Shown here: positions 2,734-58,537 of the stretch, one piece after another | Layout: each line of letters starts with the position of its first letter | Numbering within the stretch: position 1 is the stretch's first letter | DNA from: an uncultured virus (IMG/VR IMGVR_UViG_3300042864_001264) | Lineage: Duplodnaviria; Heunggongvirae; Uroviricota; Caudoviricetes | Direction: 5' to 3' (one strand) | Virus record (IMG/VR): IMGVR_UViG_3300042864_001264 | Length of the DNA stretch: 64,000 nucleotides | The notes under the pieces: generated by a model | What the model was told of the DNA's origin: nothing | Seen by the model: the letters and a program-made list of their open reading frames with translations, nothing else | Database searches by the model: none | Made by a program: the position numbers and the translations under genes

Positions 2734-3356
2734 TAGTAGGCACCTTCTTCTACTCTATCAATCTCATGATTATTAACCTGAATCATAGAGTCATATGAAT
2801 CAACAGTTAGATTAGATGAGATAAAGTCTTCAATGGCATCCATATCTCCGCCGATTTCAACTTCGATTGTCATGTCTACACGAACCCATGCAGTATATTC
2901 AATCTCCTTAGTTAAAGGAATGTCAAACATTTCTGCAATAGCAGTCAAAGACTCTTGGTCCTCTGAGTCTTCAAAGTTGTCGTGAATAAATGTACGAAGT
3001 TGTGATTCCTTCTTGAACCACTCGTTCTGCTTTGTTGTAAGATTCTTAAGTTGCCACACCATGTGACGAACATCTGATTCAGTATATGTCTTGTTGGTAA
3101 CTACATCGTTCTCAATCCAATCAAGTGTCATTACCTGTGGTGTTGTTGTTTCCATTTTATCTTCTTTCGTTGGTAGGGGTGAATCTGTATAAGGTATTGT
3201 AGCATCTTCCACTGACAATAATGTGCAATTTGAATTACAACGGCATGTGAGGTCCATCACACCTGCAGGCCATCCATATCCATCTTTAATTGTATATTCG
3301 ATTAGTGCGTCACAGTCGCCCGTGCACACCCAGGTATACTTCTGATAGTTGGTCAT
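2733..3356 (-). CDS. Hypothetical protein with a Cys-rich N-terminus and a probable second in-frame start at 3155
   Basis: ORF track 2733..3398. ATG 3356 lies 7 nt from the -10 at 3363. An internal promoter (3196-3217) and AACGAAAGAAG SD precede ATG 3155. Confidence 0.7.
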   Translation of the reverse strand: MTNYQKYTWVCTGDCDALIEYTIKDGYGWPAGVMDLTCRCNSNCTLLSVEDATIPYTDSPLPTKEDKMETTTPQVMTLDWIENDVVTNKTYTESDVRHMVWQLKNLTTKQNEWFKKESQLRTFIHDNFEDSEDQESLTAIAEMFDIPLTKEIEYTAWVRVDMTIEVEIGGDMDAIEDFISSNLTVDSYDSMIQVNNHEIDRVEEGAY

Positions 3357-3778
3357 AGCGCTATTGTAGCAGGGACCACTGACATTTTTGATTGCCACAG
3401 GCTACAGTTTCTATCTAGACGATCACCAAAAACTCTAATGTAATCTGATATATCCTCAGTCTGATCAGTTAAGCAAGACTTAACAGTATCTACTGAGATA
3501 AAGACACGGCCATTCCATAGACCCATAGGCCCGATGTTTGTAGGTACCTCTAGGCAACCATATGTATCTTGTTCCCAGCCTACTCCTTCAGAACATACGA
3601 GAGCATATTTAGGATCCCCAAATACATTCTTCTCTTCAAGTTCAATAAATAGCAGATTGTCTACTGTGCATTCAGAAAAGTCTGAACTGTATTGTAAGTT
3701 ATATATACCATTTGCAATTGTGGCAAGCTTCTTGCCGTCTACTAGTGTTCCCATGTAGCCTTTAGTTCGTGATGACAT
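3353..3778 (-). CDS. Hypothetical early protein
   Basis: ORF track 3353..3871; likely start MSSRTKG at 3778 after AACGAAAGG. Confidence 0.7.
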   Translation of the reverse strand: MSSRTKGYMGTLVDGKKLATIANGIYNLQYSSDFSECTVDNLLFIELEEKNVFGDPKYALVCSEGVGWEQDTYGCLEVPTNIGPMGLWNGRVFISVDTVKSCLTDQTEDISDYIRVFGDRLDRNCSLWQSKMSVVPATIAL

Positions 3779-12567: not shown

Positions 12568-13167
12568 ATGTTCTATGATGATCCAAATATAGTTAAGGTA
12601 AAAGAAGAAGGAGTGTGGATAGGCAAGGGCTTTGTTTCTCCAGAAGACTGCAAGGAGATAATGCACCACGTAGATTCCTTTGAGGAAAAAGACTGGCTAG
12701 ATGGATGGGCTAGGCATCAAGGAACATTATTTTATAAAAACGAAGCTTCCTCTGAAAAGCCTATTGCGGAATGGTGGAGCGACAAGGTTAGCCCTCCAGT
12801 TCTTATTCCTTCAGTAACAAATATTAATGCAAAGCTCAAATCTCTTTTTTCACCAGATTATGTTTTTCTTCCAGAGTATAAAGTTGTCAGACTTAAGCCT
12901 GGACATAACATGAAGTCTCATAGAGATAATAGAGATGGGGATCATAATCTTGATGTGGAGACTAAACAAGAATTTACAATTCAATGTGCCTACACAATTT
13001 ATTTAAGTGACTTTAAGGGTGGTGAAATAAACTACCCAGAGCTAGAGTATACCCATATACCAGAACCAGGAGACATAGTTATACATTCTGGACGAGTTCT
13101 TCATGAGGTTTTTGATGTAATTGAAGGAAACAGATATACTATAACTGGATGGCTATTAGGTAAATAG
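12568..13167 (+). CDS. 2OG-Fe(II) oxygenase (prolyl-4-hydroxylase-like)
   Basis: HRD...IYLSDFKGGE...HEV..V..GNRY. Confidence 0.85.
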   Translation: MFYDDPNIVKVKEEGVWIGKGFVSPEDCKEIMHHVDSFEEKDWLDGWARHQGTLFYKNEASSEKPIAEWWSDKVSPPVLIPSVTNINAKLKSLFSPDYVFLPEYKVVRLKPGHNMKSHRDNRDGDHNLDVETKQEFTIQCAYTIYLSDFKGGEINYPELEYTHIPEPGDIVIHSGRVLHEVFDVIEGNRYTITGWLLGK

Positions 13168-42971: not shown

Positions 42972-43306
42972 ATTTAGCCGCTTTAGAGGGTCAAGTTTTT
43001 CTTCTAGGACACTGGAAGAATTACGAAGAACTAGAAGAAAATTTATCGATGCCAGAGTTAGTTCAAACAATAACAGCGATAAATGAAAAAGAGCATAACC
43101 AGAGAAGATTTGCAGCATCACTAAAAGGAATACAATTAGATGATGCTGTAGAAGAAAAAGAAAAAGGTTCTACCTTTGAAGACATCCAAAGAAGAGCCCT
43201 TGGAATACATACATCAGCAGATGATGTTGTTAGTTTACAAGGACCCTTTGCAGCACAAGCTGGATTTGGAATCGGAGCAGGGTTAGGATACTCTAGGAGT
43301 GATTAG
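42929..43306 (+). CDS. Tail assembly chaperone -1 frameshift extension (GT)
   Basis: The -1 frame is open from the slippery site: PKPNSGSGTGWSELDLAALEGQVFLLGHWKNYEELEENLSMPEL... to the stop at 43306. Confidence 0.8.
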   Translation, partial: PKPNSGSGTGWSELDLAALEGQVFLLGHWKNYEELEENLSMPELVQTITAINEKEHNQRRFAASLKGIQLDDAVEEKEKGSTFEDIQRRALGIHTSADDVVSLQGPFAAQAGFGIGAGLGYSRSD

Positions 43307-46300
43307 TGGCTGACGAACAAATTGTAACGAGTATAGTCGCCAAAGCCGACTTGTCTAGCCTTGTGTCTGAAGTACACAGGGCTAGTTCCAGTCTCCAACA
43401 ATTACAAAGAGAGCTTCTTTCTTCAAACAGAGCAATAGCTTCTTCAACAAAGTTAGCAAACAACTTATTTAGAGATACATTAACAGGTAGCGGGCAGTTC
43501 TCTAGTCACTTTGTAAACCTTAATTCAGATGTAGACAAGTTTGGTAAAAACTTAGATGCTGGAAGATTAAAGCTTAAGAACTACTTCTCAACATTTAGAG
43601 AACATGCCACTACCCAAAAGGGTATGATTAGGGAACTTGCTAAAGAGCAAGTAATGCTTCAAAATTCAGTACTACAGCCGTTGGGAAGAAATGCCCAGGG
43701 GCTAATGCAGTATAACGTAATGATTCCAAGAGGTCTTGATGCTGTAAAGAATAGTGCACAGCTAGCTAGAATGGAAATGCAGATTATGAATCGTGCATTG
43801 TCAGAAGGAGCTGGATCTTTAATTAACTGGGGTAAAAATACTCAGTGGGCTGGTAGACAGCTTACAGTAGGATTAACTGTCCCTCTTACAATGTTCGGTG
43901 CTGCAGCAGGAAAAGCTTTTAGAGAAGCAGATCAAGAGCTTGTAAGACTAACAAAGGTTTATGGTGGATTAGCTTCAACTTCAGCAGCAGATTTAAAAGC
44001 AATTAGAGAAGAAGTTGTTCAGACAGCAAAGTCTTTATCTCAAACTATGGGAGCTTCTTTTAAAGACACAATTGCTTTAGGTGCTGATATTGCTGCAACT
44101 GGAAAAATGGGTAACGATCTTTTAGGTTCTATAGAAGAAACAACAAGACTAGCAATACTTGGTGAAGTAGATAGACAAGATGCTATGAAAGCAACTCTTT
44201 CAATTCAAACAGCATTTAAGCAAAATACAGAAGAGCTTACGGCATCAATTAACTTTCTTAACGCAGTTGAAAACCAAACATCTACAACACTTAATGATTT
44301 AGTAGAAGCAATTCCAAAAGCTGGTCCAGTTGTACAGCAGCTTGGCGGCAGCATTGAAGACTTAGCCCTTTATATGACTGCAATGAGAGAGGGTGGAATT
44401 AATGCTTCAGAAGGCGCAAACGCATTAAAGTCAGGTTTAGCTTCTTTAATTAATCCAACAAAACAAACAATCGGAATGATGTCAGATTTTGGTATAGATG
44501 TAATGGGAATGGTTGCAAAAAATACTGGAGACACAACTGGGTTATTAATGGATTTGCAATTTGCTCTAGATAAACTGGATCCTTTAAGTAAGGCTAGAGC
44601 AATGGAGCAGATGTTTGGAAAGTTCCAGTTTGCAAGAATGAGCGCACTTTTAAATAACCTAGGTAAAGAGGGAAGCCAGACTTTACAGGTTATGGAATTA
44701 ATGAAAGCAAGCACTTCAGATTTAGCAGGAATTGCTGAGCGAGAATTAGGAATGATAACAGAGTCAGCTTCTGGAAAATACAGAAGAGCAATGGAATCGC
44801 TAAAAGCATCTCTTGCAGATATTGGAGAAGACTTTCTTCCAGTTGCAACAAAGCTTATAAATGCCGCATCAAAGATACTAGACTTCTTTAGTAATTTACC
44901 AGCACCAATTAAAAAAGCAGTAACATTTATGGCAGGATTTACTGCATTAGTTGGACCACTTATTATGTTAACGGGTGTGCTTGCTAACTTCTTTGGATAT
45001 ATAACAAAAGGAATTGTACAGCTTAGAGCATTTTTCATGAAAGCAAGCGGATGGAAAATGCTTACTCCAGAAATTATTGCCGCACAAAAAGCAGCAGAGA
45101 TGGTCGAGAATGCATTTTATTCAGATGCAGCTGCGGCTCAGGTTCTTCACAATGCATTACAAAAACTTGTTTTAGATTATCAAAACCTTCAAGCTGCATC
45201 AATGAAGGGTGCAGTTCCAGTAAATCCAGGAGTAAGCACAGTTGGTGGATCCACAATAGTTACTGCTGGAAGAAGAATTGTAGATGCTTCTGATCCTTAT
45301 GTGGGAGATCCTAATACAAGGGCAATGTCACACATTAATCCTAGAGACCCAAATAATCCTGCAACAATATTTGGAGGGGTCCCAGGAGCAGTTCCAGTAA
45401 ACAGAGGAATAGCAAGAACTCCTCAAATGTACATGCATGATAGACTTCCAAACGTTGAGGGTCTAACAAGTGTTAAGGGAATATCAACTGGAATTGTTCC
45501 AGGAGAGGCAGCAAAATTCCATGCATTAATGGCAACACTTGGAATGCAGACAGAGCAAGAAGTAGCATCATTAAAGAAAACAATTGCTATGGGTGGAACA
45601 GTAAGCAGAGAACTTCTGGATACATTCGATGATATTCTTCCAATAACTCAAAGATTTGCCGACAGCGCAGCAACACAAGCAGCAGCAATAGTTCAACAAT
45701 TAAGAAATTCAGAAATAACAGTTGAGCAAGCAAAGGCAAGAATACTTGCACTAAACGCACAAATAGAAGCAGACATGGGTGCTGCAGTAACTGCATACGC
45801 TGCATCACGAGGAAGAACAATTGATTTAACAAGAGCTCCAATGATGGGCCAGCCAGTCGTTGATGCAAATGGACAGTTTACGCTAAGAGATTTATATAAG
45901 AAAAAAGCAAATGCTTCTGTAATGGAAGAGTTTGGAAGACTTCGAGGCATAAGAACATTTGGAGCTCCTTACAGTATTCAAACTACTAGAATGCCTAGAT
46001 TTAATGATGGTGGAGGCATCGAGTCTTTTGGCCCAGGCAAGACTATGGTTTCTGGACCATCTTCAATTAATTATGATGACAGACTTGGCAGTGTTCCAGT
46101 TGGCGGGTATGTATTAAATCAGCAAGCCGCAATGGATCCAGCTAATGCTGCATTAGTAGCTATGGCACCAAGTACTTATTTAAATAACGGTGGAAATATT
46201 ACTGCAGCTCTTACTCCACGGGAAGTAGTATTCGGACCTCAAATTCAAAGAATGCCTGAGCTATATGCAGCAGTAGATGCAGCAAACAATGGTTATAATT

Positions 46301-49300
46301 TTGGCGGGCAGATCATGGATGGAGTTACTGGCTATGGAAAGAAAACTGCAAGAACTCCAAATGTAGAAGATAAAGCTTATTACAAGAAGCAGTTAAAAGA
46401 ATATTTAAGATTTATTAATAACCCAAGATATGAAGACGACATCAGAGTAAGAATGATTATGCTTGATGCTGCAGAGCTAGCACATACAGCAGGTATACCA
46501 GTAGACAAGGCTATAAAAATTGCTTCGAGTAATTTTGATTTAGCAAAGAGTGCATCTGGTGGATCAATTGAAAAGTTTATTGAACAAAGAATTAAGCAGG
46601 TCAAGGGCCTAGAGAGAAGATATCCATCATTAAAACATCCAGATTCTTCATCTACAAGAACTCCTAATAGCAAGGCTTTAAACTACAAGCTAAATGATGT
46701 TAGATCGGCAATGCTTAGGAGCCCAAGATTTAAAAATGTTTTTGATTTAATTGATGGAATATCTCCAACCACAATAAAGAACCCTGGTGGAATGCCTTTG
46801 CTAGAAGGACTTCATGTTAGAGGCCACGTACTTAGACACGGACAGGTAGGATACGCAACCAGAGGTCATATGGGAGTTGCAGCAGTACTTCCTCATGGAA
46901 TTAATAGTTTAATGTCACGACTTCAGGGGATAGGAATTTCTCCAGATGTACTAAGTTTAACAGGCCCAGATGCAAGAAAGAATTTTGAAATAGCGCTAAA
47001 GTCTGTCGGAATGCACAGAATGACAAGCGTAGACGACATTGCAACAGCGCTAGAAGACAATAATTTATTTAAGAGCAAATCAGAAATTCAATCAGGAAGA
47101 GCAATTAGAGCAACCTCAAAACAAAGAAATGATTTGCAAATGTTCCTAGAGGCAGTAATGTCTAGGAAAAAATGGGTTATGATCCCTAGAGGAAGACCTC
47201 CTATTATGACTCCAGTTCTTGCAAAATTAAATAAGGGTGGAATGATCCCAGGCGGAAGTATATCTAGGGGTAGAAGTTCTTATGGCAACCCAATGCCTTT
47301 ATTGGCACCAGAGAAGATGCTTAAAATTTTAACAACAGCAAAGCAATTAAGCTCAAGAGAAGCACTAGGCTCATTTGCCGATACACCAATAACTCAGTAC
47401 GGACATAGAATTGCTGGCAGCTCTGGCATGAGCTACCCGATACCTGGTGTATCTGGTGTATACAGAGACGCTAAAGGTAAACTAGTTTTTGTTAAAGGCG
47501 TCTCACATGAAGCAGTTGCAATTCATGAGCCAATAGGGGCGGACATTGTTAGAAAGGGGTTTAAGATAAATACCCCAGTAATGGGAGCTAGAACAGTATC
47601 TAATCCTTTAGACCCAACAAAAAATAGTAAACTTCTTGCTCTAGAATCAGACTACGACCCACGCTTTGTAAAAACTAATGTGCCATGGGATGAAGGTACA
47701 GTAATTAGACAGCTTGCCGCTTCTCTTCTTATGAATAATAAAGATTTGTCTAGGTCAAATGTATTTGGTAACTTTAATCCAGATGTTGGACAATCTGGAG
47801 TATTTACTAGAGCATCTGGAAATACAGCAGTCGCAAAAGCTGAAGAAATGAACTCAATGGAAAAACAAGCAATGATTAACTTGCTTGCTGTTAGAGGCGG
47901 AGCAAGAAAAGACTTTGCACGTGATACAGCTCCAATAGTTGCTAAGATGAGCCCAAGAAGATATGGTCGACTAATGAAGGATGCATTAGTGCAAGCTCGT
48001 CCAGAATTAGTAAAGATTATAAACGGATTGCCTAAAGAAATTCGTGGCCCTTATATTGCAATGCTTAAAAGGTTGGATGATGGAATCGAAGTTGATTGGA
48101 GTAAATACCATTCTTTGCATGCTAATCCAACATACCTTAATGCTGGAGGTCCAATCGGCGGAGGCTTAATTAGAAGAGGTAGATATGCCTACGGTGCTAA
48201 AAAAGATGGATCAAGAAGATCAGGAAATCCAGCAAAAAGAGCTGAGCAAGAAAGATTAAGAGCAGAAAGAGCAGCATCTTATCAGCCAACAAGATCTGGC
48301 TCTTCTTACACAGCTACTGGTAATCCACAAGTACAGGTTACCCGTGTCCCTTATGTTGGAGGAACTGGAGTACGTGGAAACGCTTACACTGGACAACTTA
48401 CTCCTTCTGCAGCTAGAACTATTAGCACAATGAGGCTGGCACAATTCCCTTATATGAATATGCCAACTATGCCAATGAACATTCCAGGGATTGGAAATAC
48501 AGCAGCAATAACACAAGCATTTTCGTCTGTATCTTCTTCTATACAAAAGGGTTCAATAAGATTCAACCTAGAGCTACTCAACGCAGCTAGTAAAATGGGA
48601 ATTGCCTATAAGCAGTCTACAATGTCAATCATAAATGTTTCAAAGACTGCAGTAGCAACAGCTAGAAATTTTGCAACATCATCAGCTGATATGGCTAAAG
48701 GTTTTGTGCAAAGAAGACAAGCTGAAATATTAAGAGAGCAGGCTTTAGTTACAGCAAGACATTATCCTAATGGAGGATTCGATCCTTATCAAAGATCATA
48801 CTTCGGGCCTGGAATGGTCGGAGACTGGAGAAGCACTGGTCAAGATGGAATACAGAAAAGAAAAGTAGGAAGCCTCGGATTTAGAAAAACAGAGTATATG
48901 ATTGATGGTCAGCATATGACTAAGGCTCAAGCAAAGGCAGCAGGAGTTGCTTTGCCTCCAAGAGGTATGGGCATGGGCAGCCAAATGGGAATCGGAATGG
49001 CTGGATCAATGGGCGGTATGGCCTTGATGCAGAAAGAAAAGGTTAACGTACTTGGTTATGAAATGTCTGGAGCATCAGCAGGAATGGGTGTTATGGCTGC
49101 AAGCAGCATACTTCCATTCTTACCATATGCAAAAATGGGTGCTGGACTTAAGAGCGCAGGAACTGCATCAGTAGGTCTTGCAAAAGGAATGGCAGCGGCA
49201 GCTAAAGCTGGAACATTCTTTATAAAAATACTTCCAAAATTGCTACACTTTGCCAAAGCCTTTGGCCCAATCGGATTAGTTATAACAGCAGCTGCAACCG

Positions 49301-52300
49301 CATTCTCAATATTTAAGGCCAATAACGACGCATGGCAAGATGCCAGAATGGGTCTTTCTATGACCGAAAAGGCGGCAGAGCAGGCTGGAGTTAAATACTT
49401 TAACCTTCAAGAAACAATGCAAGGCTATCTTGATAAGCAAAAGGCTGTAGCAATTGCAGGCAAGGCCTCACAGTATAATTCAATAGGAATGCCTGGACTT
49501 CCACAGTCTATAGAAGACATGAAGAAGGCAAAAGAAGAGGGTAAGGGCCTAACAGATTTAATTGAATCTATTAATAGGTCTACAAGTGCTGCTGAAACTA
49601 AGAGACTCGTAGCAAATCAAAAAGCACAATATATTGCAGGTGGAATGAGCATAGCGGACGCAAATAGAAAAATATACGGAGCGATGCTTAACAGTGAAAA
49701 ATCAGGTCAAGTATTTAATATTATAGGCAACAGTGCATTTGGATCAATTACTGATAAGGCTTCAGCAGCAGAATATTCTGTTAAGAGCTTAATCAATACA
49801 TTAAATAATGGCGACGGAACCGCTGACTGGGGCAAAGAAGTTGGCGTAGGCTTTGAAGGATTAATAAATGTATTTAGCTCAGCTACAAATTCTTTGATTG
49901 GAACAAAAGATGCTTTAGGAAATGTAATAGACGAGTACACTGCATATCAAATGGTTATGAGTGATGCAGAAAGTAATAATCCAAAAATTAATGAGGCAAT
50001 AGGACAAAGTGTTTATTCAAATTTAATTGACTCACAGCCACTGTTAGAGCTAATTGCAAATAAATCAGATAGCATTAAAGGCATATTGGCAAAGTGGAAG
50101 TTGTTTACATCTGGAGTTAATATAGACTTAAGTAAGATTGATTCAACCTTAGCAATTAAATTAGCTGGATTTTCCCAAGCAATTGGAACAGGAATTCAAA
50201 AATTAACTAATTCAGCTGATAATGCAACTACATTCTCTTCAGTTGGATCGGCACTAGAAAGATTAAAGAAGACCATCGGATCTGTATCTGCAGCATCTCA
50301 AAGAGCAGCTAATGCTGCACAAAGAAGTGCACAAGAAGAGTTAAAGCTAATTTCCAAAAAGATTAAACTTATTGATGATGAAAAAAATAAAAAGCTGGAA
50401 GCGCTAAGAGCAACACAAGAAGCATCTAACTATGCGCTATCTTTGCAAAAGCTACAGATAGAATATGCTGATGCGGTATCTCGTGGAGACATGGCTACAG
50501 CAAATCGTGCTCAGCTAGAGATAGATCAGCTTACAATGAACAGGCAAACAGAACTTGCCACTAAAGCAATTGAAGATGCTGCAGCAAAAGCTAAGGCACC
50601 ACTAGAAAAGAAGGCGACTGACATACAGGATGCCTCAGATAAACGATCTAATACTATTGCAACAAATCAAGACAAAGCCGCTTCTGCATCAGAAATAGCT
50701 GCAAAGCTTACAGAGTTCCAAGAAAAATATAACGAAATAGTTGAAAGAGGAATTCAGGCTCAGGTACTTCCAGATGCAGAAAGAAAGAAAGAAGAAAAAG
50801 CAGTTAGAGAGTCTTTACTTGCATTTGCTAAAGAAGTTCAAAATGCTGGAACTGGAAGCTCTGCTCTTTCAAAAGAAATACGTAACGCATTCTTTAAGCT
50901 AGGGCTATTTGACAAAGATGGAAAAGCAATTCCAGTAACTACAACAAAACCTACAGGCGGAATGCCAACAGGAGTTGATGCAAACGGCAAACCAATAATT
51001 CCAACTACCACTACAATAAACTCAGGGCTAACAGAGCAATTTGCTAAAGATATGAAGGCAGTAACCTCCCTTGCACTAGATATAACTGGAGGAACTACTT
51101 TAAATCAACTCAGACTAGATTTGCTAAAAGCTCTAGGAAAAAGCAGTTCAGCAACAGCTGACCCAACAACAGTTGGAGGCAAGGTTGTGCCTGGTAAAGG
51201 TGGAAATCCAACAAAGTACTTTGACTCTAAGGGTAACCAGATAACAAAAGAGCAATATGAAAGTATGCCATCTTCTTCACCTGGCGGCGGAACTAATTTT
51301 TCAGTACCTATAGATGGATTAAAGAGCAAATCTTTTGGAAGCATGTCTGCTGTACAGAGAGAATTTTTTGAGTTAAATGGTGGTAAAGGAGAGTACAAGA
51401 GTGTTGATGGATATAAATACTTAGCAAATGGTTTGGTCTACAAAGACAAAGCTATTGTAGGCCGATGGTGGCATTTCTTGCCAAATGGTAATGGCAGAGT
51501 TAAAACTTATAGTGAGGGATCCCCTGGAGGAGTTGTATCTGGTCCAGGAACTGGAACATCTGATTCTATTCCAGCAATGCTTTCAAATGGAGAGTATGTA
51601 ATAAAAGCAGCTTCTGTTGCGAAATATGGAACTCAAACATTTGATGCACTGAATGCTGGAAAATATGCAGATGGTGGTTTAGTACTTAATGAGCCAAGGC
51701 CTGCAGTCGACTATACCCCACTTCCCTCTACACCAATATCAAAGCTAGGTAAAACTACACAAGCGCAGATTAAGTATTTAAGAGATTGGACCAATTTATT
51801 AAACACCTACTATGCTGCAAAGTACAAGGACATTTTTAGCTTTAAGCCAGGAGAAAAAATTGTAACTTCATTAGATACAATGCCTGTTGTCAAAGGCACC
51901 AAGGTAGTTAAAGATCCAGATAAAGCTTTACTTGATACCCAACAGTACGGGGGGCAATATAGACATTACGATTCTTCAATAACTATGGGCTTAGGCTTGG
52001 CTGGAAAACCAATGTTTATACCAAATCCAATAAATGAACCATCCACAATGAAAAATCTTAATCTAATCTCGTCCTTTCCGTTTTTAGCAAAAGGAATGTC
52101 TCCAGTTGATTACATAGAATCTATTTCAAAGGATGCACAAAAAAATCCATATGGAAGAATGGAAATTTTAACTACATTATTCCATGAATTTGCTCATGCG
52201 CTACAATTTAGAATAAACGGATACATAAAAAATTCACAAAAATCAAGAGGATTAACTGATGTAGGAGATCCCAATAAGCCAACTCCAGGATTCCTTAATA

Positions 52301-54681
52301 TAGAATCTGGAGCCGATGTAATGGCTGGCGGTATATTTAAAGAAATGTATTCCAACGGATATATTCCTCAAATAAAAAAGTCTGTTATAGACACGCTTCT
52401 TAAAAGCCAAACTCTGACTGCATCTTACGGAGATGTCCCAGCATTTGATAAAAGAGATCCATCTTCTGAAAACTTCACCTGGCATCCATATAACAATAAT
52501 TTTAGATTTAAATCTGTTATGACAGGATTTGGAATGGGTGACAGTGCATCTTTTGACGATACACTTACACTTAGAAAACAGTACCTCACAGAAAATGGTG
52601 GAGTTCCAATAACATTTGCAGAAATAGGCGACTCTGCTGCAGCAATTGCTGCAATAACTCCAAACATGATTCCAAAGGGATTTCATAAAGGAGGGCCAGT
52701 CGGTCATAGGCATGGAAGAAATGCTCCTTCAACATCTGGCAATACAGCTCCTTCACAAGGTTCTTGGTGGGATAAACTTGGATTAAAGATGTCTTATAAG
52801 CCAGACGGAATGATGAACCCTGTAGGAATGACTGGGTTTGGCATTCTTGATGCAATAAAATCTTTAGGTGCCGTAGCTATCGGCAGTGTTGTTCCATCTC
52901 TTCCTGCAAGAGAAAGAGACATAGCAAGCGCTGCAGAAACAACACTTGTAGGTCCAGCATCCAGATTATTTGGAAGTGAAAGATTCCCAAGTCCATGGGG
53001 AGAATCAGGGCTAGGAATGTCAAGCGGATGGTCAAAAGGAATGGATGTGGCTTCTATATTAGCAGCCGTTGTACCATTTGGAATGGTAGCCAGAACTTCT
53101 CAACAAACAGCAGTAAATGCTGCAGCATTTCCAGCAGCAAGAGCAGCAGCATCAGTAGGTCTTGCTAAACCAAAACCAACATTGCCATCACTGATGCCTG
53201 ATGTCTTAAAGCCCAAAAAAGTCATGCCATCCGAATATTCTTTAGCCTATGATGCATCTGGATCTATGCATAGAATAGAAGTTAAATTAGGAGATGAGGT
53301 TGCAGGATACCTAACATGGGATAAAGAGACGGGGGTTGTTGAAAACTTACAGGTATACCCTAAACACCAAGGCAAGAATGTTGCAACAGCAATGTACAAC
53401 AAGGCTCAAACAATTGCCCCAATTACACACAGCTCATACAGAACTCCAGCTGGTGATATATTTGCACACAGCATTGGAGACCCAGTTGTACCTTTAAACG
53501 ATAGTTGGCTTCCAGGAGATTGGACACAGGCGCAACTTGACGCAGCAAAACTTAGAAATAAAAATCATGTAGTTACACAATTACCTAAAGTTAAAGATCC
53601 AGACCTAGATGGCTTCTCTGGACCAGATATAGTTGGAGGACAAAGGGTAGTAGGAACTGAAAACTGGGGCAGCCTAATAACAGAAAATAGTGATATTATG
53701 AAAATATTAACTGAATTAAGCGCATTTTATAAAGTTGATGTTCGTCCTTCAGTTATTAGACAGAAAATGACTCCTGGCACCGCTGGATATCATCGCAGTG
53801 ACACACAGTCAGTGTATTTCCCAGATAAAACTAGGGGTGCCGTTGTAGCTCATGAAATAACGCATGCGGCGGACTTTCAGGGAGCTTATTGGTCTTTTGA
53901 GGACATGCTGAAGTATCTATTAAAGACAGATAGAAAAGCCGCAGAGATAGTATTTAATGAATCAATGATGAATTCTTATGGCGTAGCTAAAAGTGGTGGA
54001 AATAGACCAGCATGGCTTTATGATTCGGTAGCCAGCAATCTAGAAACATATGCACCACAGCATCTACCATACTGGAGAGGCCTATTAGAAAAAAATGCAA
54101 ATTCGCAAATACCTAATATAAAGCCTGCAGGATTAGATTTGGGCAATCCTTATGCTGATATATATGGATTTAAATTAGCTTCAATGCTTAAGTCATCTAT
54201 GCGTGAAGGGTCCACACACTATAGAAGTCCTAAATTTTGGGAAGCACTAATAGCAGATGAAAATATTCCTTCCCACCTTGCTAAAAAAGGAGAAGGTTAT
54301 ATCGCGGCATTAAATAGATATCGTGTGGATGAAACTACACCAAATGATTCATTCCAGCTTAAAAAATTATTGGAGTACGCAATAGCGACTAAAATGGCTA
54401 AGGGTGGATTAGTGGGAATACCTAAATTTGAAGCGGGAATTAATGTGGTCCCAGCTGACATGTTAGCAATGATTCATAAGAATGAAGCGGTAATTCCAGC
54501 CAACATGAATCCATTTAATCCAAATGCTACATCTTCCGCCGTGGCATCAGGATCAGTATATAATATTAATGTAGAGCTAAACGGAACTACAGTAACAGCA
54601 AAAGACGTTGCAATGGAAATACATAGAGAGATGAGAATAAAAGAAATGGCAGCTGGAGTAAATAGAACGGTGGGCAAATAA
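43306..54681 (+). CDS. Tape measure protein, 3791 aa, with embedded enzymatic modules
   Basis: N-terminal TP901-type TMP core, GPGTGTSDSIPAMLSNGEYV motif, position after the chaperones, and internal kinase-like, HExxH and GNAT segments. Confidence 0.92.
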   Translation: MADEQIVTSIVAKADLSSLVSEVHRASSSLQQLQRELLSSNRAIASSTKLANNLFRDTLTGSGQFSSHFVNLNSDVDKFGKNLDAGRLKLKNYFSTFREHATTQKGMIRELAKEQVMLQNSVLQPLGRNAQGLMQYNVMIPRGLDAVKNSAQLARMEMQIMNRALSEGAGSLINWGKNTQWAGRQLTVGLTVPLTMFGAAAGKAFREADQELVRLTKVYGGLASTSAADLKAIREEVVQTAKSLSQTMGASFKDTIALGADIAATGKMGNDLLGSIEETTRLAILGEVDRQDAMKATLSIQTAFKQNTEELTASINFLNAVENQTSTTLNDLVEAIPKAGPVVQQLGGSIEDLALYMTAMREGGINASEGANALKSGLASLINPTKQTIGMMSDFGIDVMGMVAKNTGDTTGLLMDLQFALDKLDPLSKARAMEQMFGKFQFARMSALLNNLGKEGSQTLQVMELMKASTSDLAGIAERELGMITESASGKYRRAMESLKASLADIGEDFLPVATKLINAASKILDFFSNLPAPIKKAVTFMAGFTALVGPLIMLTGVLANFFGYITKGIVQLRAFFMKASGWKMLTPEIIAAQKAAEMVENAFYSDAAAAQVLHNALQKLVLDYQNLQAASMKGAVPVNPGVSTVGGSTIVTAGRRIVDASDPYVGDPNTRAMSHINPRDPNNPATIFGGVPGAVPVNRGIARTPQMYMHDRLPNVEGLTSVKGISTGIVPGEAAKFHALMATLGMQTEQEVASLKKTIAMGGTVSRELLDTFDDILPITQRFADSAATQAAAIVQQLRNSEITVEQAKARILALNAQIEADMGAAVTAYAASRGRTIDLTRAPMMGQPVVDANGQFTLRDLYKKKANASVMEEFGRLRGIRTFGAPYSIQTTRMPRFNDGGGIESFGPGKTMVSGPSSINYDDRLGSVPVGGYVLNQQAAMDPANAALVAMAPSTYLNNGGNITAALTPREVVFGPQIQRMPELYAAVDAANNGYNFGGQIMDGVTGYGKKTARTPNVEDKAYYKKQLKEYLRFINNPRYEDDIRVRMIMLDAAELAHTAGIPVDKAIKIASSNFDLAKSASGGSIEKFIEQRIKQVKGLERRYPSLKHPDSSSTRTPNSKALNYKLNDVRSAMLRSPRFKNVFDLIDGISPTTIKNPGGMPLLEGLHVRGHVLRHGQVGYATRGHMGVAAVLPHGINSLMSRLQGIGISPDVLSLTGPDARKNFEIALKSVGMHRMTSVDDIATALEDNNLFKSKSEIQSGRAIRATSKQRNDLQMFLEAVMSRKKWVMIPRGRPPIMTPVLAKLNKGGMIPGGSISRGRSSYGNPMPLLAPEKMLKILTTAKQLSSREALGSFADTPITQYGHRIAGSSGMSYPIPGVSGVYRDAKGKLVFVKGVSHEAVAIHEPIGADIVRKGFKINTPVMGARTVSNPLDPTKNSKLLALESDYDPRFVKTNVPWDEGTVIRQLAASLLMNNKDLSRSNVFGNFNPDVGQSGVFTRASGNTAVAKAEEMNSMEKQAMINLLAVRGGARKDFARDTAPIVAKMSPRRYGRLMKDALVQARPELVKIINGLPKEIRGPYIAMLKRLDDGIEVDWSKYHSLHANPTYLNAGGPIGGGLIRRGRYAYGAKKDGSRRSGNPAKRAEQERLRAERAASYQPTRSGSSYTATGNPQVQVTRVPYVGGTGVRGNAYTGQLTPSAARTISTMRLAQFPYMNMPTMPMNIPGIGNTAAITQAFSSVSSSIQKGSIRFNLELLNAASKMGIAYKQSTMSIINVSKTAVATARNFATSSADMAKGFVQRRQAEILREQALVTARHYPNGGFDPYQRSYFGPGMVGDWRSTGQDGIQKRKVGSLGFRKTEYMIDGQHMTKAQAKAAGVALPPRGMGMGSQMGIGMAGSMGGMALMQKEKVNVLGYEMSGASAGMGVMAASSILPFLPYAKMGAGLKSAGTASVGLAKGMAAAAKAGTFFIKILPKLLHFAKAFGPIGLVITAAATAFSIFKANNDAWQDARMGLSMTEKAAEQAGVKYFNLQETMQGYLDKQKAVAIAGKASQYNSIGMPGLPQSIEDMKKAKEEGKGLTDLIESINRSTSAAETKRLVANQKAQYIAGGMSIADANRKIYGAMLNSEKSGQVFNIIGNSAFGSITDKASAAEYSVKSLINTLNNGDGTADWGKEVGVGFEGLINVFSSATNSLIGTKDALGNVIDEYTAYQMVMSDAESNNPKINEAIGQSVYSNLIDSQPLLELIANKSDSIKGILAKWKLFTSGVNIDLSKIDSTLAIKLAGFSQAIGTGIQKLTNSADNATTFSSVGSALERLKKTIGSVSAASQRAANAAQRSAQEELKLISKKIKLIDDEKNKKLEALRATQEASNYALSLQKLQIEYADAVSRGDMATANRAQLEIDQLTMNRQTELATKAIEDAAAKAKAPLEKKATDIQDASDKRSNTIATNQDKAASASEIAAKLTEFQEKYNEIVERGIQAQVLPDAERKKEEKAVRESLLAFAKEVQNAGTGSSALSKEIRNAFFKLGLFDKDGKAIPVTTTKPTGGMPTGVDANGKPIIPTTTTINSGLTEQFAKDMKAVTSLALDITGGTTLNQLRLDLLKALGKSSSATADPTTVGGKVVPGKGGNPTKYFDSKGNQITKEQYESMPSSSPGGGTNFSVPIDGLKSKSFGSMSAVQREFFELNGGKGEYKSVDGYKYLANGLVYKDKAIVGRWWHFLPNGNGRVKTYSEGSPGGVVSGPGTGTSDSIPAMLSNGEYVIKAASVAKYGTQTFDALNAGKYADGGLVLNEPRPAVDYTPLPSTPISKLGKTTQAQIKYLRDWTNLLNTYYAAKYKDIFSFKPGEKIVTSLDTMPVVKGTKVVKDPDKALLDTQQYGGQYRHYDSSITMGLGLAGKPMFIPNPINEPSTMKNLNLISSFPFLAKGMSPVDYIESISKDAQKNPYGRMEILTTLFHEFAHALQFRINGYIKNSQKSRGLTDVGDPNKPTPGFLNIESGADVMAGGIFKEMYSNGYIPQIKKSVIDTLLKSQTLTASYGDVPAFDKRDPSSENFTWHPYNNNFRFKSVMTGFGMGDSASFDDTLTLRKQYLTENGGVPITFAEIGDSAAAIAAITPNMIPKGFHKGGPVGHRHGRNAPSTSGNTAPSQGSWWDKLGLKMSYKPDGMMNPVGMTGFGILDAIKSLGAVAIGSVVPSLPARERDIASAAETTLVGPASRLFGSERFPSPWGESGLGMSSGWSKGMDVASILAAVVPFGMVARTSQQTAVNAAAFPAARAAASVGLAKPKPTLPSLMPDVLKPKKVMPSEYSLAYDASGSMHRIEVKLGDEVAGYLTWDKETGVVENLQVYPKHQGKNVATAMYNKAQTIAPITHSSYRTPAGDIFAHSIGDPVVPLNDSWLPGDWTQAQLDAAKLRNKNHVVTQLPKVKDPDLDGFSGPDIVGGQRVVGTENWGSLITENSDIMKILTELSAFYKVDVRPSVIRQKMTPGTAGYHRSDTQSVYFPDKTRGAVVAHEITHAADFQGAYWSFEDMLKYLLKTDRKAAEIVFNESMMNSYGVAKSGGNRPAWLYDSVASNLETYAPQHLPYWRGLLEKNANSQIPNIKPAGLDLGNPYADIYGFKLASMLKSSMREGSTHYRSPKFWEALIADENIPSHLAKKGEGYIAALNRYRVDETTPNDSFQLKKLLEYAIATKMAKGGLVGIPKFEAGINVVPADMLAMIHKNEAVIPANMNPFNPNATSSAVASGSVYNINVELNGTTVTAKDVAMEIHREMRIKEMAAGVNRTVGK

Positions 54682-55271
54682 TGAGTTTTCAAAAACTACC
54701 CAAAGGATCAATTCTATACATTGAGGCAACAGACCCATATGCAATTGATACAGCTACTAACTCTTTTGATTATAAAGGCGGAACTGCAGTTGCTCCAGGA
54801 AACACATATACATCTGCAGTAGCAACAACCAACGGGCTAGCCCTAAGCTCAAAAACACAATTAAGATTTAGAAGAGTTTCAGAGCATAATAGAAGTCCAT
54901 TGTCTTTTAATAATAATAGAATTGAGCAGTCTACCAGAATGGCAAACGGAACCCTTAGAAGATATTTTGTTGCAGATAAATTAAATATATCTATGTCCTG
55001 GGAAATGCTTCCATCTTTTCGAAATGAAACAGTTGACGGAGGTTGGGGGGCTGAAGATTTAAAGAATTTTTATGAGAGCCCAGCTGGCCGTGGCCCCTTT
55101 AGAATAAAACTTAATCCAACAGCTTTTAATCCAGAGTTAGTTGAACAAGCCGATGGATTTTTAGCAGATGACTATACGTATACGGTTATGTTTACTTCAT
55201 GTGATTTTTCTATTGTAAAAAGAGGACTTCAGACCTACTGGAATGTTACCATATCACTGGAGCAAGTATGA
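54681..55271 (+). CDS. Distal tail-like protein
   Basis: Immediately after the TMP; RMANGTLR and W.V.ISLEQV motifs. Confidence 0.7.
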   Translation: MSFQKLPKGSILYIEATDPYAIDTATNSFDYKGGTAVAPGNTYTSAVATTNGLALSSKTQLRFRRVSEHNRSPLSFNNNRIEQSTRMANGTLRRYFVADKLNISMSWEMLPSFRNETVDGGWGAEDLKNFYESPAGRGPFRIKLNPTAFNPELVEQADGFLADDYTYTVMFTSCDFSIVKRGLQTYWNVTISLEQV

Positions 55272-58200
55272 TACCTGTATCAACCGCTACAAGAGATTTA
55301 TTAAAAAAAGGATATTCTATTTCGACTTCGGCGGGAGCAACAATTGAGTACAACTTAAACTCAATGGTAGAAAATGTATCTGCAACTTCAGATGCAATGA
55401 CAAATAATTATAGCGTGGCATTTAAAAAGCTTTTCCCAATAGATACAATATATAAGCCATTCAGACCACTATCACCAGGAATTAAATATTTAGTGCATAC
55501 AACTAATAGCACAGATACCCCTAAAGATTCTTTTGAAAACCCTAGAGATGTGTCATTAGGAACAAAGCCTAGGCTGTACTATCCTGGCCCAGACATTGTG
55601 TATAAATATTGGTTGGCACCAAAAGATACTAATATTAATATATCTGTAAACTATTTTGTAGATGATACTGTTACATCTGAACCTAAGATAATACCTGTTA
55701 ACAAAATTATTGCAAGATTTGAAACAAATCATGACAAACCAACTTCGTGGACCATAACTGGAGTTAAGCCAGACAACACAACAATATCTGTAACTGGTAC
55801 AACACTTAATTCAAATGGAGAAGCAGTAATATACTACAACGGATCCACATGGTCTACAACAGAGCCAGCAACTTACACTACTACTCAAAACCTAAAAAGA
55901 ATATCTTTATCCGCTGTAAACTCAAAGACTGGAAAATTTATTGGAGTTATTGAGTTTAGTCCTAGGTGGGTTATAAATGTTGATTCTGACATTATGTCAT
56001 TTTTGGTCAATAAAGAAACAACATCAGATGATACATCAATTGTCCCAGTTGGAATAATTACAGCAAACTATTTAAATATGTTTATATCTAAGCCGCATAC
56101 AACTTCCAGGTCAATTGTTGAGTATGATAGGAATGCAGCAATTGATAGTACTAAAATTTATTTATTAAAAAATGCATTAATTAAGCCATATATAAATGTT
56201 GGAGATGGAGCAACATCTCAAAAGGTTCCTCAAGGATCATTCTACGTAAATACATGGTCATTATCAGAATTTGGAGAAGCTTCAATAGATGCTACAGATG
56301 CTGCAAAAATATTGCAAGATACATTATGCCCACAGTTGCTAGTACAAGACTCACCAATAACTTCAATTATAAAAAGAATATTAGACTCAATTGGATTTTC
56401 TACATATAAAATTAACGTTAAGACGGTAGATGGTAAAGTTGATGATGACTCCATTCCTTCCCTGTCTTACTGGTGGTCTGACGGAGATAAGACAGTGTGG
56501 GATGTTTTACAAGAATTATGTAGAGACATACAGATGAATGCTTTTGTAGATGAATATAATACACTAAACTTTTACAGCAGAAATTTTATATATGATAAAA
56601 CAAGAGAGCCATCGTGGACATTTACAAGCGAAAATATAAATGTTAACTCTGTGCTAGATTATGCCCCTAACATACAATCATTATCAACTAAAGAACTTTT
56701 TTCTGCAAACCAAGTAAGGGTTAGATACTCTACTGCATTTACAGCATCTAATACTGAGTCATCATCCCCACTTTGGAAATCAGATACATCATTTCTTGGA
56801 GCTGGAGCATTAACAAAAAAAATTGATCTTTCTAGCACAGACTTTTCGCTTCAGCCTAGCGTAGTTAATTCTGATAGAACAGATAGAATACTTGATCAGT
56901 TTAGCGGATATGTTTTAATTAACGGCGAAATTATTGAATATGATGGAGTATATTATCAGTATGTTCCAGTAAACGGAACTACTCCAATAGAAGTATTAAT
57001 TAAAAGCCAATCCGATATTTGGAAATACTCAGCATTGGCAAAACCAGGTTATAAGAATTTTCAACCAACTAACAGATATAGTATTAAAACAAGAGGTGCA
57101 TTATCAACATCTAAATCAGTTCATGAAGTTGCTCCAGATTCTTATATAAATAAAGCAGGAGAGAATGATACAAATAAATTTAATAAATATTCAATCACAT
57201 TAGCAACACCAGATATAGCAAAAGATAAGCCAGGTTCGGGTAATTACTTTATTCCAACTGGAAGTACAAGTAAAGGAATTAGAAAAGGGTTTTTAGCTAT
57301 TTCTAATCTAGACCAAAATAAAAAAAGTTTTGATATTGCAATTAAAAAATTTGAATCAATAGCACCCTCTGGCCCTTATTTTTCATTTGGCACTAGAATG
57401 TTTTTTGAAAGTCAGCTTAATACACCAGAGCAGGTAGGGGGAATAGGATTCTGTTTAGATTCTGACGGTAAAAATGGATATTATTTGCTAGTAAGAACAA
57501 CTGCATATGCAGAGCTACAAAAAGATATAATGCTAGTAAAAGTTCAAAATGGAAGACTTACTGTTTTAAAAGATAGCCAGCAAAGCTCCACAAAAACACT
57601 AGCTGGAATATATGCTGGCGTTTCTTATAATATTGATATTTTACTTAAGCCTTCGGAGCCACTGCCTGGGGGAGCATTTAAAAATATAATTACAGTATTT
57701 ATTAATGGATATAAAATAACAGCGGTAGATTCAGGATATGACGGTCCAAGCATTTACGTACCACCGATATCAATAACAAAAAATGTCGGTGTTCATTGCG
57801 GTCAAGGAGTTGCATATTTTGAATACCTTTATGCTAAAACAATTCCACAAGCAGTTTATGAGAAAAATAGCAAGGCAATTATATATGAATATAATGGCGT
57901 ATATTCAGATGACACTGTCTCAATGCTGTATGGAGATATTATATATAATGATGGAGAATCAGTTTCTGACAACACTGGCCCAGTATTTGAATTTGGAACT
58001 ACGGCCAGAGAGATTAAAAAAACAAAAATATCATATGAAGATAGACCAGCCATACCAATTACTTTTAGAACATCTTTAAATAAATATGTAACTGTATTAG
58101 ATCAGAGATTACAGCCATTTGGAGCAGAGAGCTATGTTCTAAATAACACATCTACTACAGTAGCTCTAGATGATAATAATAATACAAGCTTTTATGTTTT

Positions 58201-58537
58201 AGGTAACTCAATTCAAAGATCGGGAGTTATAGACTATGATACAGACCAGTCTACAGATTCTTCAAATAAAGAGTCCGTAGTATTTGACTCAGTATGGATT
58301 CAAAGAGAGCAAGACGCTAAAGCTCTTGCTGAATGGATTAAGTCCAATGTATTAAATAAAGGAAGATTTGTAGACATGACGGTCTTCGGTAACCCAATAA
58401 TTTCGGCTGGAGATATAGTTAGAATTAACTATCCAATACTAGGTATGGATACAGCAACTAATAAATATATAGTTACAAAATGCACCCTAGAATATAGAGA
58501 GGGGCTTACCACAACAATTGCATGTAGAGCAATCTAA
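55268..58537 (+). CDS. Tail tip/hub minor tail protein
   Basis: Position; TVWDVLQEL..FVDEY..LNF hub motif; C-terminal GNP.I..GD.V.I. Confidence 0.75.
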   Translation: MIPVSTATRDLLKKGYSISTSAGATIEYNLNSMVENVSATSDAMTNNYSVAFKKLFPIDTIYKPFRPLSPGIKYLVHTTNSTDTPKDSFENPRDVSLGTKPRLYYPGPDIVYKYWLAPKDTNINISVNYFVDDTVTSEPKIIPVNKIIARFETNHDKPTSWTITGVKPDNTTISVTGTTLNSNGEAVIYYNGSTWSTTEPATYTTTQNLKRISLSAVNSKTGKFIGVIEFSPRWVINVDSDIMSFLVNKETTSDDTSIVPVGIITANYLNMFISKPHTTSRSIVEYDRNAAIDSTKIYLLKNALIKPYINVGDGATSQKVPQGSFYVNTWSLSEFGEASIDATDAAKILQDTLCPQLLVQDSPITSIIKRILDSIGFSTYKINVKTVDGKVDDDSIPSLSYWWSDGDKTVWDVLQELCRDIQMNAFVDEYNTLNFYSRNFIYDKTREPSWTFTSENINVNSVLDYAPNIQSLSTKELFSANQVRVRYSTAFTASNTESSSPLWKSDTSFLGAGALTKKIDLSSTDFSLQPSVVNSDRTDRILDQFSGYVLINGEIIEYDGVYYQYVPVNGTTPIEVLIKSQSDIWKYSALAKPGYKNFQPTNRYSIKTRGALSTSKSVHEVAPDSYINKAGENDTNKFNKYSITLATPDIAKDKPGSGNYFIPTGSTSKGIRKGFLAISNLDQNKKSFDIAIKKFESIAPSGPYFSFGTRMFFESQLNTPEQVGGIGFCLDSDGKNGYYLLVRTTAYAELQKDIMLVKVQNGRLTVLKDSQQSSTKTLAGIYAGVSYNIDILLKPSEPLPGGAFKNIITVFINGYKITAVDSGYDGPSIYVPPISITKNVGVHCGQGVAYFEYLYAKTIPQAVYEKNSKAIIYEYNGVYSDDTVSMLYGDIIYNDGESVSDNTGPVFEFGTTAREIKKTKISYEDRPAIPITFRTSLNKYVTVLDQRLQPFGAESYVLNNTSTTVALDDNNNTSFYVLGNSIQRSGVIDYDTDQSTDSSNKESVVFDSVWIQREQDAKALAEWIKSNVLNKGRFVDMTVFGNPIISAGDIVRINYPILGMDTATNKYIVTKCTLEYREGLTTTIACRAI

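What the first reader, a model, noticed from the sequence alone, without database searches (positions are those of the whole stretch)
46000..54500. Polyvalent tape measure protein carrying effector cassettes delimited by a recurring xxx-GG motif
Seen: the 3791-aa TMP contains non-helical inserts. These are a kinase-like segment (GVYRD..GKLVFVK...LLMNNKDLSRSNV...PDVGQSG, ~47400-48120), two zincin HExxH motifs (LFHEFAH at 52183, VAHEITH at 53851), a GNAT (LQVYPKHQGKNVATAMY, ~53260-53480) and a His-rich unknown segment (~46340-47220). The modules are bounded by similar motifs: RFNDGG, YLNNGG, KLNKGG, YLNAGG, KYADGG, GFHKGG and KMAKGG. Established: TMPs are ejected into the cell, and phage polyvalent proteins combine metallopeptidase, GNAT and kinase domains. 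Inference: an injected effector polyprotein whose GG motifs are processing sites or cassette-exchange junctions.
Basis: partly seen in the sequence, partly recalled or inferred. Interest (0 to 1): 0.82.

Follow-up and report, generated by a model that had tools for sequence, protein, structure and literature searches.

The report
Phage tail ruler with swappable enzymes
A lake phage's giant tail-ruler protein carries several enzyme-like modules, separated by a short repeated peptide where related phages exchange modules and which resembles the spot where phage T5 cuts its own ruler, so the tail probably delivers a customisable set of enzymes into the host, although no cut or activity has been shown.

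Summary
Observation confirmed. The 3791-aa tape measure protein (TMP; 43306-54681) of an uncultured lake siphophage, distantly related to Streptomyces phages, has 8 copies of [FYLM][ANH]xGGx[IV] (0.19 expected). In 58 relatives, 463 of 464 copies lie in two cargo zones. Cassette exchange at the motif is shown: 67 of 166 homology breakpoints fall within 15 aa of a motif (10 expected), ordinary GG pairs show no excess, and 44 long relatives have 36 cassette strings. Cargo here: an atypical kinase fold (CotH/CtkA/HipA-like, Z 8-11), two zincins with all metal ligands, a minimal GNAT, and a possible His-Me nuclease (motif and topology only). Cleavage is inferred, not shown. T5's mapped TMP cut (after R1127) falls in an invariant RAxGG, and one family variant aligns with it in register (E 3e-4). 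The motif opens a generic TMP C-terminal module that this family has multiplied. Corrections: the GNAT and the second zincin share one cassette, and the zincins cannot be the obligatory protease (43 of 70 relatives lack them). This scan noted the same pattern earlier on other DNA (four notes); nine paper searches found no description. New variant of a known kind.

The parts
43306..54681 (+). Tape measure protein gene, 3791 aa, between the tail tube/chaperone genes and the next tail genes (54681-55271, taken as distal tail by position; 55268-58537, minor tail protein)
   Evidence: PF10145 aa 239-438, E 4.7e-26; phrog_10030 E 1e-118; about 32% identity to Streptomyces phage TMPs over aa 46-681
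43306..45999 (+). Conserved N-terminal ruler (aa 1-898), one hydrophobic segment at aa 541-559, no motif
   Evidence: 77-100% identity in 43 of 43 non-redundant loci proteins; hydropathy
46000..46314 (+). Junction block with three motifs (aa 899, 959, 997); reads as a degenerate copy of the TMP C-terminal module
   Evidence: 63-100% identity in 43 of 43; the module assignment is by inspection only
46309..47226 (+). Fixed slot 1 (aa 1002-1307): folded domain, candidate His-Me finger (beta-beta-alpha) nuclease with H1174 and N1200; alleles swap between motifs
   Evidence: AF2 strand 1170-1174, strand 1192-1196, helix 1197-1207; N1200 invariant in 29 of 29; [RK][GAS]H...N pattern in 117 of 195 proteins; no library hit; swap against L047 runs from codon 1002 to 1308
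47227..47247 (+). Motif LNKGGMI, in a predicted unstructured linker between slots 1 and 2
   Evidence: pLDDT < 50 at model residues 306-333 = aa 1305-1332
47242..48135 (+). Fixed slot 2 (aa 1313-1610): atypical kinase fold (CotH/CtkA/PI4K/HipA-like); K1397, E1408, D1480, N1485 and D1493 invariant
   Evidence: VIA-align Z 11.1 (rmsd 4.1, 214 aligned) CotH, 9.7 MavQ and CtkA, 8.4 HipA; invariant columns in 35 of 35
48136..48156 (+). Motif LNAGGPI closing the kinase slot
48151..51495 (+). Second ruler-like segment (aa 1616-2730), with a hydrophobic stretch near aa 1979 and no motif
   Evidence: no Pfam hit at or above cut-off
51508..51684 (+). Generic TMP C-terminal module (GG...DSIPAMLSNGEY...LN), closed by the motif YADGGLV
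   Evidence: 271 phage records match; 35 of the 40 rows shown are annotated as TMP; Douge TMP has two copies and JBD30 one at aa 1019-1066
51679..52680 (+). Optional cassette K10 (aa 2792-3125): zincin, H2960-E-x-x-H2964 plus E3000
   Evidence: ligands conserved in 6 of 6 aligned alleles; 6 of 117 cassettes are homologous; SprT-like only at E 0.16; atlas lead 0.84, weak
52681..52701 (+). Motif FHKGGPV between cassettes K10 and K6
52696..54393 (+). Optional cassette K6 (aa 3131-3696): hydrophobic leader (aa 3131-3300), minimal GNAT (aa ~3310-3400), zincin H3516-E-x-x-H3520-x-x-D plus E3595; no motif inside
   Evidence: PF00583 E 5.3e-4, 20.7 bits = cut-off, on the isolated piece; GNAT homologues in 14 of 117 cassettes; zincin ligands invariant in 11 of 11; M13/PepO E 0.013 and 7.5e-4
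54394..54681 (+). Last motif MAKGGLV and conserved C-terminal block, the likely tail-tip anchor
   Evidence: the anchor role is inferred from T5, JBD30 and Douge

Best explanation
This is the tape measure protein of a freshwater siphophage family related to the Streptomyces BE-like phages. The family has multiplied the short phi/R-[ANH]-x-G-G-x-[IV] joint that opens the ordinary TMP C-terminal module and uses it as the boundary of exchangeable cargo. Shown: two fixed slots after the N-terminal ruler, whose alleles reassort; and a C-terminal zone holding zero to five optional cassettes that are gained, lost and recombined at the joint. The joint is kept at the protein level, not as a DNA repeat. 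Inferred (about 0.55-0.6): the joint is the TMP maturation cut, between the first residue and [ANH]xGG as in T5. It would be cut by a protease other than the cargo zincins. Inferred (about 0.7): the TMP is loaded unfolded with its chaperones, the pieces leave the tail at infection and refold. Wall hydrolases (in relatives) would act in the envelope, and the kinase, GNAT, zincins and possible nuclease would act on host proteins or DNA ahead of the genome. No immunity gene is needed if the cargo stays unfolded until ejection.
For: Motif confined to the cargo zones. Breakpoints at motifs: 67 of 166 against 10.4 expected; stricter test 16 of 25 starts and 23 of 41 ends against 2.3 and 3.3; decoy GG pairs 5 of 63 against 11.7. 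36 cassette strings in 44 long relatives, and 26 of 70 with no C-terminal cargo. 18 slot-1 alleles and 8 slot-2 alleles in 33 combinations among 63 proteins. Window against L047: about 60-75% nucleotide identity from codon 1002 to 1308, 91-100% on either side. 14 of 16 Gly-Gly codon pairs are used, and the 81-nt windows around the 8 motifs are at most 47% identical. T5 is cut after R1127 in an RAxGG invariant in 5 of 5 T5-family proteins; the L056/L069 module aligns in register, E 2.9e-4; R/K-start variants are common in the family. Linker disorder. Kinase fold and residues. Zincin ligands. The next tail gene follows directly in 66 of 70 complete loci, 4 too short to test.
Against: No cleavage, activity or delivery was measured. 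The T5 link rests on a 7-residue motif plus one pairwise profile match (probability 40%) chosen after inspection. The window-type module gave E 0.32 to T5 and 0.022 to lambda, and family HMMs missed both (iE 5.6 and 0.52). 99 of 166 breakpoints are not within 15 aa of a motif, and a swap at codons 1660-1750 against L047 has no motif. In short relatives the motif recurs every 8-13 aa, which also fits a structural repeat. JBD30's authors predicted a folded 'hook' for this module and speculated a cut at its other end. No candidate protease was identified. Foldseek alone gave no PDB match at E <= 0.001.
Confidence: 0.58

Rival explanations
1. The motif is a structural joint, a short strand-turn that docks on the hub, tube or a chaperone, or a flexible hinge. 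The protein is ejected whole, with the enzymes tethered to the TMP channel. Cassettes swap there only because it is the shared homologous linker.
For: Tandem copies 8-13 aa apart in short relatives. The module is predicted to fold as a hook in JBD30. The passages read on P23-45's TMP-fused RNA polymerase mention no processing. Some polyvalent proteins are delivered uncut.
Against: T5's mapped cut falls exactly at the same kind of motif. Ordinary GG pairs are not breakpoints. The motif flanks each enzyme module on both sides.
Confidence: 0.27
2. The motif is cut, but the cargo is removed during tail assembly or acts late inside the producer cell (assembly aid, superinfection exclusion, competition). 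It is not delivered to the next host.
For: Folded 300-aa domains cannot sit in a tail lumen of a few nanometres (established knowledge). TMP length varies from 2706 to 4576 aa among close relatives, which would mean very different tail lengths if all of it were inside. Half of lambda's gpHC copies may be lost from the particle.
Against: T5's cut fragment stays in the virion and is proposed to be expelled and refolded. CHAP, LysM and lysozyme cassettes make most sense at entry. The cassettes lie upstream of the C-terminal anchor.
Confidence: 0.1
3. The modules are decayed passengers or filler that only lengthen the tail.
For: The C-terminal cassettes are dispensable in 26 of 70 relatives. Library hits are weak or absent.
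Against: Catalytic-type residues are invariant in the kinase (35 of 35) and in both zincins. Slots 1 and 2 are kept in 42 of 43 proteins.
Confidence: 0.05

Closest known systems
Phage T5 TMP pb2 and its maturation to pb2* plus pb2C (PMC10038345; passages read)
   Same: A siphophage TMP cut near its C-terminus, releasing a fragment with a proposed wall-degrading motif that stays in the virion and is expelled at infection. The cut lies in RAxGG.
   Different: T5 has one such site and one small fragment; this protein has 8 motifs, two cargo zones and exchangeable 150-800-aa cassettes. Cleavage is untested here, and the sequence homology is only moderate and indirect.
Phage lambda gpH to gpH* plus gpHC (PMC12617516; passages read)
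   Same: gpH carries the motif at aa 733 and 778. A cut after 733 would leave 79.8 kDa and free about 12.5 kDa, near the reported ~14 kDa.
   Different: The lambda site and catalyst are stated to be unknown; the paper places the gpHC start near residue 690. No enzyme cargo is known in gpH.
Polyvalent proteins of phages and conjugative elements (Iyer et al. 2017, PMC5512222; sections 6, 8, 11 and passages read)
   Same: Unrelated enzymes (zincin MPTases, GNAT, kinase) in one late-gene polypeptide, with proposed delivery and processing.
   Different: The word 'tape' occurs 0 times in its main text (supplements not seen), and its phage members are said to be likely capsid-packaged. Here the carrier is the TMP and the joints are a fixed peptide. 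The kinase keeps a C-terminal helical lobe, unlike the truncated polyvalent kinase. The MPTase is optional.
Thermus phage P23-45 gp96, a TMP fused to a virion RNA polymerase (PMC10770324; passages read)
   Same: A giant TMP (5002 aa) with a cytoplasm-acting enzyme and a metallopeptidase domain.
   Different: One N-terminal enzyme; no repeated joint or cassette exchange in the passages read.
TMPs of mycobacteriophage Douge and Pseudomonas phage JBD30 (PMC13033339, PMC11445458; passages read)
   Same: Both carry the motif-opened module: two copies in Douge, one in JBD30.
   Different: Douge: no 'cleav' in the main text. JBD30: the module is a predicted hook, with a cut speculated at R1066. Neither describes exchangeable cargo.

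Membership tests
Siphophage tape measure protein | Long gene after the tail tube and G/GT chaperone genes, before the distal tail and hub genes, with a TMP domain | tested here: met
   frameshift-type heptamer at 42929, present in 82 of 82 loci
Cleaved TMPs (T5 pb2, lambda gpH) | Sequence at the joint homologous to the mapped T5 cut | tested here: inconclusive
   motif in register and E 2.9e-4 for the L056/L069 variant; not significant for the window-type module
Cleaved TMPs (T5 pb2, lambda gpH) | Proteolytic cut in mature virions | not testable with these tools
   needs virion proteomics; uncultured phage
Polyvalent proteins (Iyer 2017) | Two or more unrelated enzymatic domains in one polypeptide among late virion genes | tested here: met
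   kinase fold, zincins and GNAT
Polyvalent proteins (Iyer 2017) | Zincin MPTase with HExxH and a downstream Glu; one phage clade adds an Asp three residues after the motif | tested here: met
   E3000 and E3595; HExxHxxD invariant in 11 of 11 for the second zincin (feature). Clade assignment not tested.
Polyvalent proteins (Iyer 2017) | Polyvalent-type kinase lacking the C-terminal subdomain | tested here: not met
   the model has a helical C-lobe aligned to CotH/CtkA over about 200 residues
Polyvalent proteins (Iyer 2017) | Packaged and delivered with the DNA | not testable with these tools
   inferred from TMP biology only
Atypical kinases (CotH/CtkA/PI4K/HipA-like) | Fold plus Lys, Glu, catalytic Asp, Asn and metal-binding Asp (roles recalled) | tested here: met
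   subfamily unresolved, activity untested
His-Me finger nucleases | Beta-beta-alpha unit with a His ending strand 1 and an Asn in the helix (pattern recalled) | tested here: inconclusive
   topology and residues fit; no profile hit; the domain was not folded and searched alone
Polymorphic toxin systems | Immunity gene and orphan cassettes next to the toxin gene (definition recalled, and passage) | tested here: not met
   the next tail gene follows within 60 nt in 66 of 70 complete loci, 4 too short; no stand-alone or other-fusion homologues found in two weak searches

The most novel reading that the evidence does not exclude
phi/R-[ANH]-x-G-G is the general maturation signal of many siphophage tape measure proteins (T5 mapped; predicted after F733 in lambda and F1019 in JBD30). 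This phage family has turned it into a polyprotein code that lets the tail carry and release five or more interchangeable, ready-made enzymes, among them a kinase and a His-Me nuclease.
Probability: 0.4. Interest if true: 0.88.

Novelty: new variant of a known kind. Interest (0 to 1): 0.72.

Why it matters
If the joints are cut, the tail is a modular protein-delivery device, comparable to head-packaged polyvalent proteins but with a defined peptide boundary. The motif also gives a precise prediction for an open question, since the lambda gpH cleavage site and its catalyst are stated to be unknown (PMC12617516). That can be tested today in lambda, T5 and JBD30. Even if uncut, cassette shuffling inside a tape measure protein marks a diversifying host-interaction zone in a lake phage family found in many samples.

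Tried and rejected
Single-sequence AF2 of the kinase segment was uninformative (pLDDT 41). PDB sequence searches found nothing for the kinase, slot 1 or the GNAT. PHROGs and NCBIfam gave no cassette hit at a curated level. The slot-1 profile against 1.84 billion proteins gave 18 hits, mostly family members; three that I read (P0128, P0130, P0132) look unrelated. The atlas gave only unnamed viral clusters at 0.75-0.76. PF13930 was not found in two related genomes. The fold searches were filled by the kinase, so slot 1 is barely tested. The slot-2 HMM found no convincing match among the C-terminal cassettes (best E 0.0013, short), so the kinase-like cassettes K15 and K23 are a different lineage or unrelated. 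A DNA-level recombination repeat was rejected. Cargo zincins as the obligatory protease were rejected: only 27 of 70 representatives have HExxH after the anchor, while all 58 full-length ones have 5-12 motifs. A double-glycine/C39 leader or ubiquitin-like cut after GG was considered (recalled); the T5 mapping puts the cut before the AxGG instead. The L056 C-terminus had no match in phage records. Dropped rows: 47 of 204 proteins lacked the anchor or the C-terminus and were left out of the tail analysis. In 16 of 44 long tails the first junction was set by default. No whole genome is held. No complex was predicted, because no binding is claimed.

Full report
Setting. The window holds the late region of a phage: portal, prohead protease, capsid, tail tube, two chaperone-like ORFs, the 3791-aa ORF, a 196-aa ORF and a minor tail protein. 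The large ORF is a tape measure protein (PF10145 at aa 239-438; 13 of 16 PHROG hits are labelled TMP). Its best cultured matches are Streptomyces phages at about 32% identity over aa 46-681. Eighteen public runs hold at least half of the sampled words; all are lake or freshwater metagenomes, and four may be the source of this DNA. An actinobacterial host is my inference from those relatives; it was not tested. Contigs from run X5 cover nearly all of 46322-54534 with 5 differences, and one X12 contig spans all the C-terminal cassettes, so the gene is real.

The motif. The pattern [FYLM][ANH]xGGx[IVL] occurs at aa 899, 959, 997, 1308, 1611, 2787, 3126 and 3697, which is 8 of the 39 GG pairs; the shuffle mean is 0.185. 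Because the pattern was fitted afterwards, I tested it elsewhere. A wider version hits 2 times in 14,204 aa of 48 other window ORFs. In 58 full-length relatives it occurs 262 times in aa 880-1700, 201 times beyond aa 2600, once in aa 1-880 and never in aa 1700-2600; there are 5-12 copies per protein, rising with length (Spearman 0.73). It is a protein motif: 14 of 16 Gly-Gly codon pairs occur among 470 sites, and the 81-nt windows around the 8 copies in this gene are at most 47% identical.

Cassette exchange. I fetched 74 viral and 35 metagenome loci and 120 proteins. Complete TMPs run from 2706 aa to 4576 aa, while aa 1-898 are 77-100% identical. Of 204 proteins, 157 had the anchor and the C-terminus; they reduce to 70 representatives, 26 with a bare 136-144-aa tail and 44 with cargo. 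The 44 split into 117 segments in 37 clusters, giving 36 distinct strings. The window is K10+K6; K6 also follows K2 or K28, and K10 also precedes K14. Ends of high-identity matches fall within 15 aa of a motif in 67 of 166 cases (null 10.4, maximum 21 in 1000), and 56 of 80 internal motifs carry such an end. A stricter run gave 16 of 25 starts and 23 of 41 ends, while non-motif GG pairs gave 5 of 63 against 11.7 expected. The two N-terminal slots are present in 42 of 43 proteins but reassort: 18 and 8 alleles in 33 combinations among 63 proteins. Against L047, divergence starts at codon 1002 and ends at 1308, which is from one motif to the next. Against this reading, 99 of 166 breakpoints are elsewhere, and another swap at codons 1660-1750 has no motif.

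Cargo. An AF2 model of aa 1000-1615 from 35 sequences (mean pLDDT 78.6) gives two folded domains joined by a low-confidence linker that contains the motif. The second domain matches atypical kinases: CotH Z 11.1 (rmsd 4.1, 214 aligned), MavQ and CtkA 9.7, PI4KII 9.3, HipA 8.4. Foldseek gave no PDB hit at E <= 0.001, though most listed rows were kinase-fold proteins, and 9 viral hits at E <= 0.001, some annotated as portal or ADP-ribosyltransferase fusions. K1397, E1408, D1480, N1485 and D1493 are invariant in 35 of 35; their catalytic roles are recalled. The first domain has no library match. Its strand ending in R-G-H1174, second strand, and helix with invariant N1200 fit the recalled His-Me finger nuclease layout; I put this at about 0.5. 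Both zincins keep HExxH and a third-ligand Glu (6 of 6 and 11 of 11), and the second has the Asp three residues after the motif that is described for a phage polyvalent clade. The GNAT reaches Pfam's cut-off only as an isolated piece and recurs in 14 of 117 cassettes. It shares cassette K6 with the second zincin behind a hydrophobic leader, with no motif between them. Relatives carry CHAP (4 of 21 cluster representatives scanned), LysM (2 of 21) and a phage lysozyme. Others look kinase-like or ADP-ribosyltransferase-like by eye only.

Origin and meaning of the joint. The segment aa 2735-2791 is a common TMP module: 271 phage records match it, and 35 of 40 rows shown are annotated as TMP. Douge has two copies and JBD30 one. 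An earlier scan note pointed to T5, which I checked. T5 pb2 is cut after R1127 (PMC10038345), and the residues there read R then AEGG, invariant as RAxGG in 5 of 5 T5-family proteins. R/K-start variants are common in this family, and the L056/L069 module aligns to the T5 family in register over 37 columns (E 2.9e-4, probability 40%). The window-type module does not align significantly. Lambda gpH has the motif at 733 and 778; a cut after 733 frees about 12.5 kDa against a reported ~14 kDa, and the site and catalyst are stated to be unknown (PMC12617516). JBD30's authors predicted a hook for residues 1022-1066 and speculated a cut at 1066 (PMC11445458), which supports the structural rival. The cargo zincins are not the general protease, as 27 of 70 representatives have one.

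Mechanism. Shown: ruler, slots, cassettes, exchange at a protein-level joint, enzyme-type folds or ligands, and no adjacent immunity gene (66 of 70 complete loci, 4 too short). Inferred: cutting before [ANH]xGG, unfolded storage, ejection and refolding (proposed for T5 pb2C), and action on the envelope and the cytoplasm. Overall confidence 0.58; uncut tethered cargo 0.27.

Literature. Nine searches were run, seen as listings with abstract starts. None showed a paper on this motif or on cassette exchange in TMPs. Passages were read from PMC5512222 (plus sections 6, 8, 11), PMC10038345, PMC10770324, PMC13033339, PMC10713586, PMC12617516, PMC11445458, PMC7824862, PMC9503650 and bioRxiv 10.64898/2026.02.24.707460. 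PMC10713586 reports no conserved motif among the extreme C-terminal fragments of three TMPs. No supplements were seen; the architecture lists of PMC5512222 could hold TMP fusions, and subscription papers are not covered. Four earlier notes of this scan describe the same pattern on other DNA; they are not independent evidence.

Verdict. Real, and a new variant of known kinds (enzyme-bearing cleaved TMPs; polyvalent proteins). Interest 0.72.

Noticed in passing
window:42929-42935: The heptamer CCCAAAC near the end of the 110-aa chaperone ORF, with an open -1 frame running into 43049-43306, fits a G/GT programmed frameshift; a heptamer of this kind is present in 82 of 82 loci.
   Followed up: partly
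window:26713-31680 and 12568-13167: A run of ORFs with 2OG-Fe(II) oxygenase-type PHROG hits sits among the structural genes.
   Followed up: no
window:14777-16711: Ribonucleotide reductase with a B12-dependent insertion domain hit.
   Followed up: no
window:3902-3978: tRNA-Asp (gtc) on the minus strand.
   Followed up: no
L034:10968-11390 (cluster K1) and L011:18843-19043 (K3): The commonest cassettes are 60-140-aa Gly/Pro/Trp-rich peptides with no family hit; K1 is in 23 of 44 long tails but absent from the window.
   Followed up: partly
L003, TMP aa 3079-3218: A roughly 65-aa stretch is duplicated in tandem across a motif, a possible snapshot of cassette duplication.
   Followed up: no
L015:14088-15590, L051:20117-21385, L021:13505-14431, L046:17554-18219: Cassettes K14, K20, K21 and K35 look ADP-ribosyltransferase-like by eye; no library hit.
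   Followed up: partly
L104, L107, P0059, P0062 C-termini: Some relatives have a different C-terminal block with no clear GG motif in the last 150 aa.
   Followed up: no
window:36101-37417 aa 120 and window:59734-63375 aa 955: Single motif-like strings in the prohead protease and in a tail protein; may be chance.
   Followed up: no
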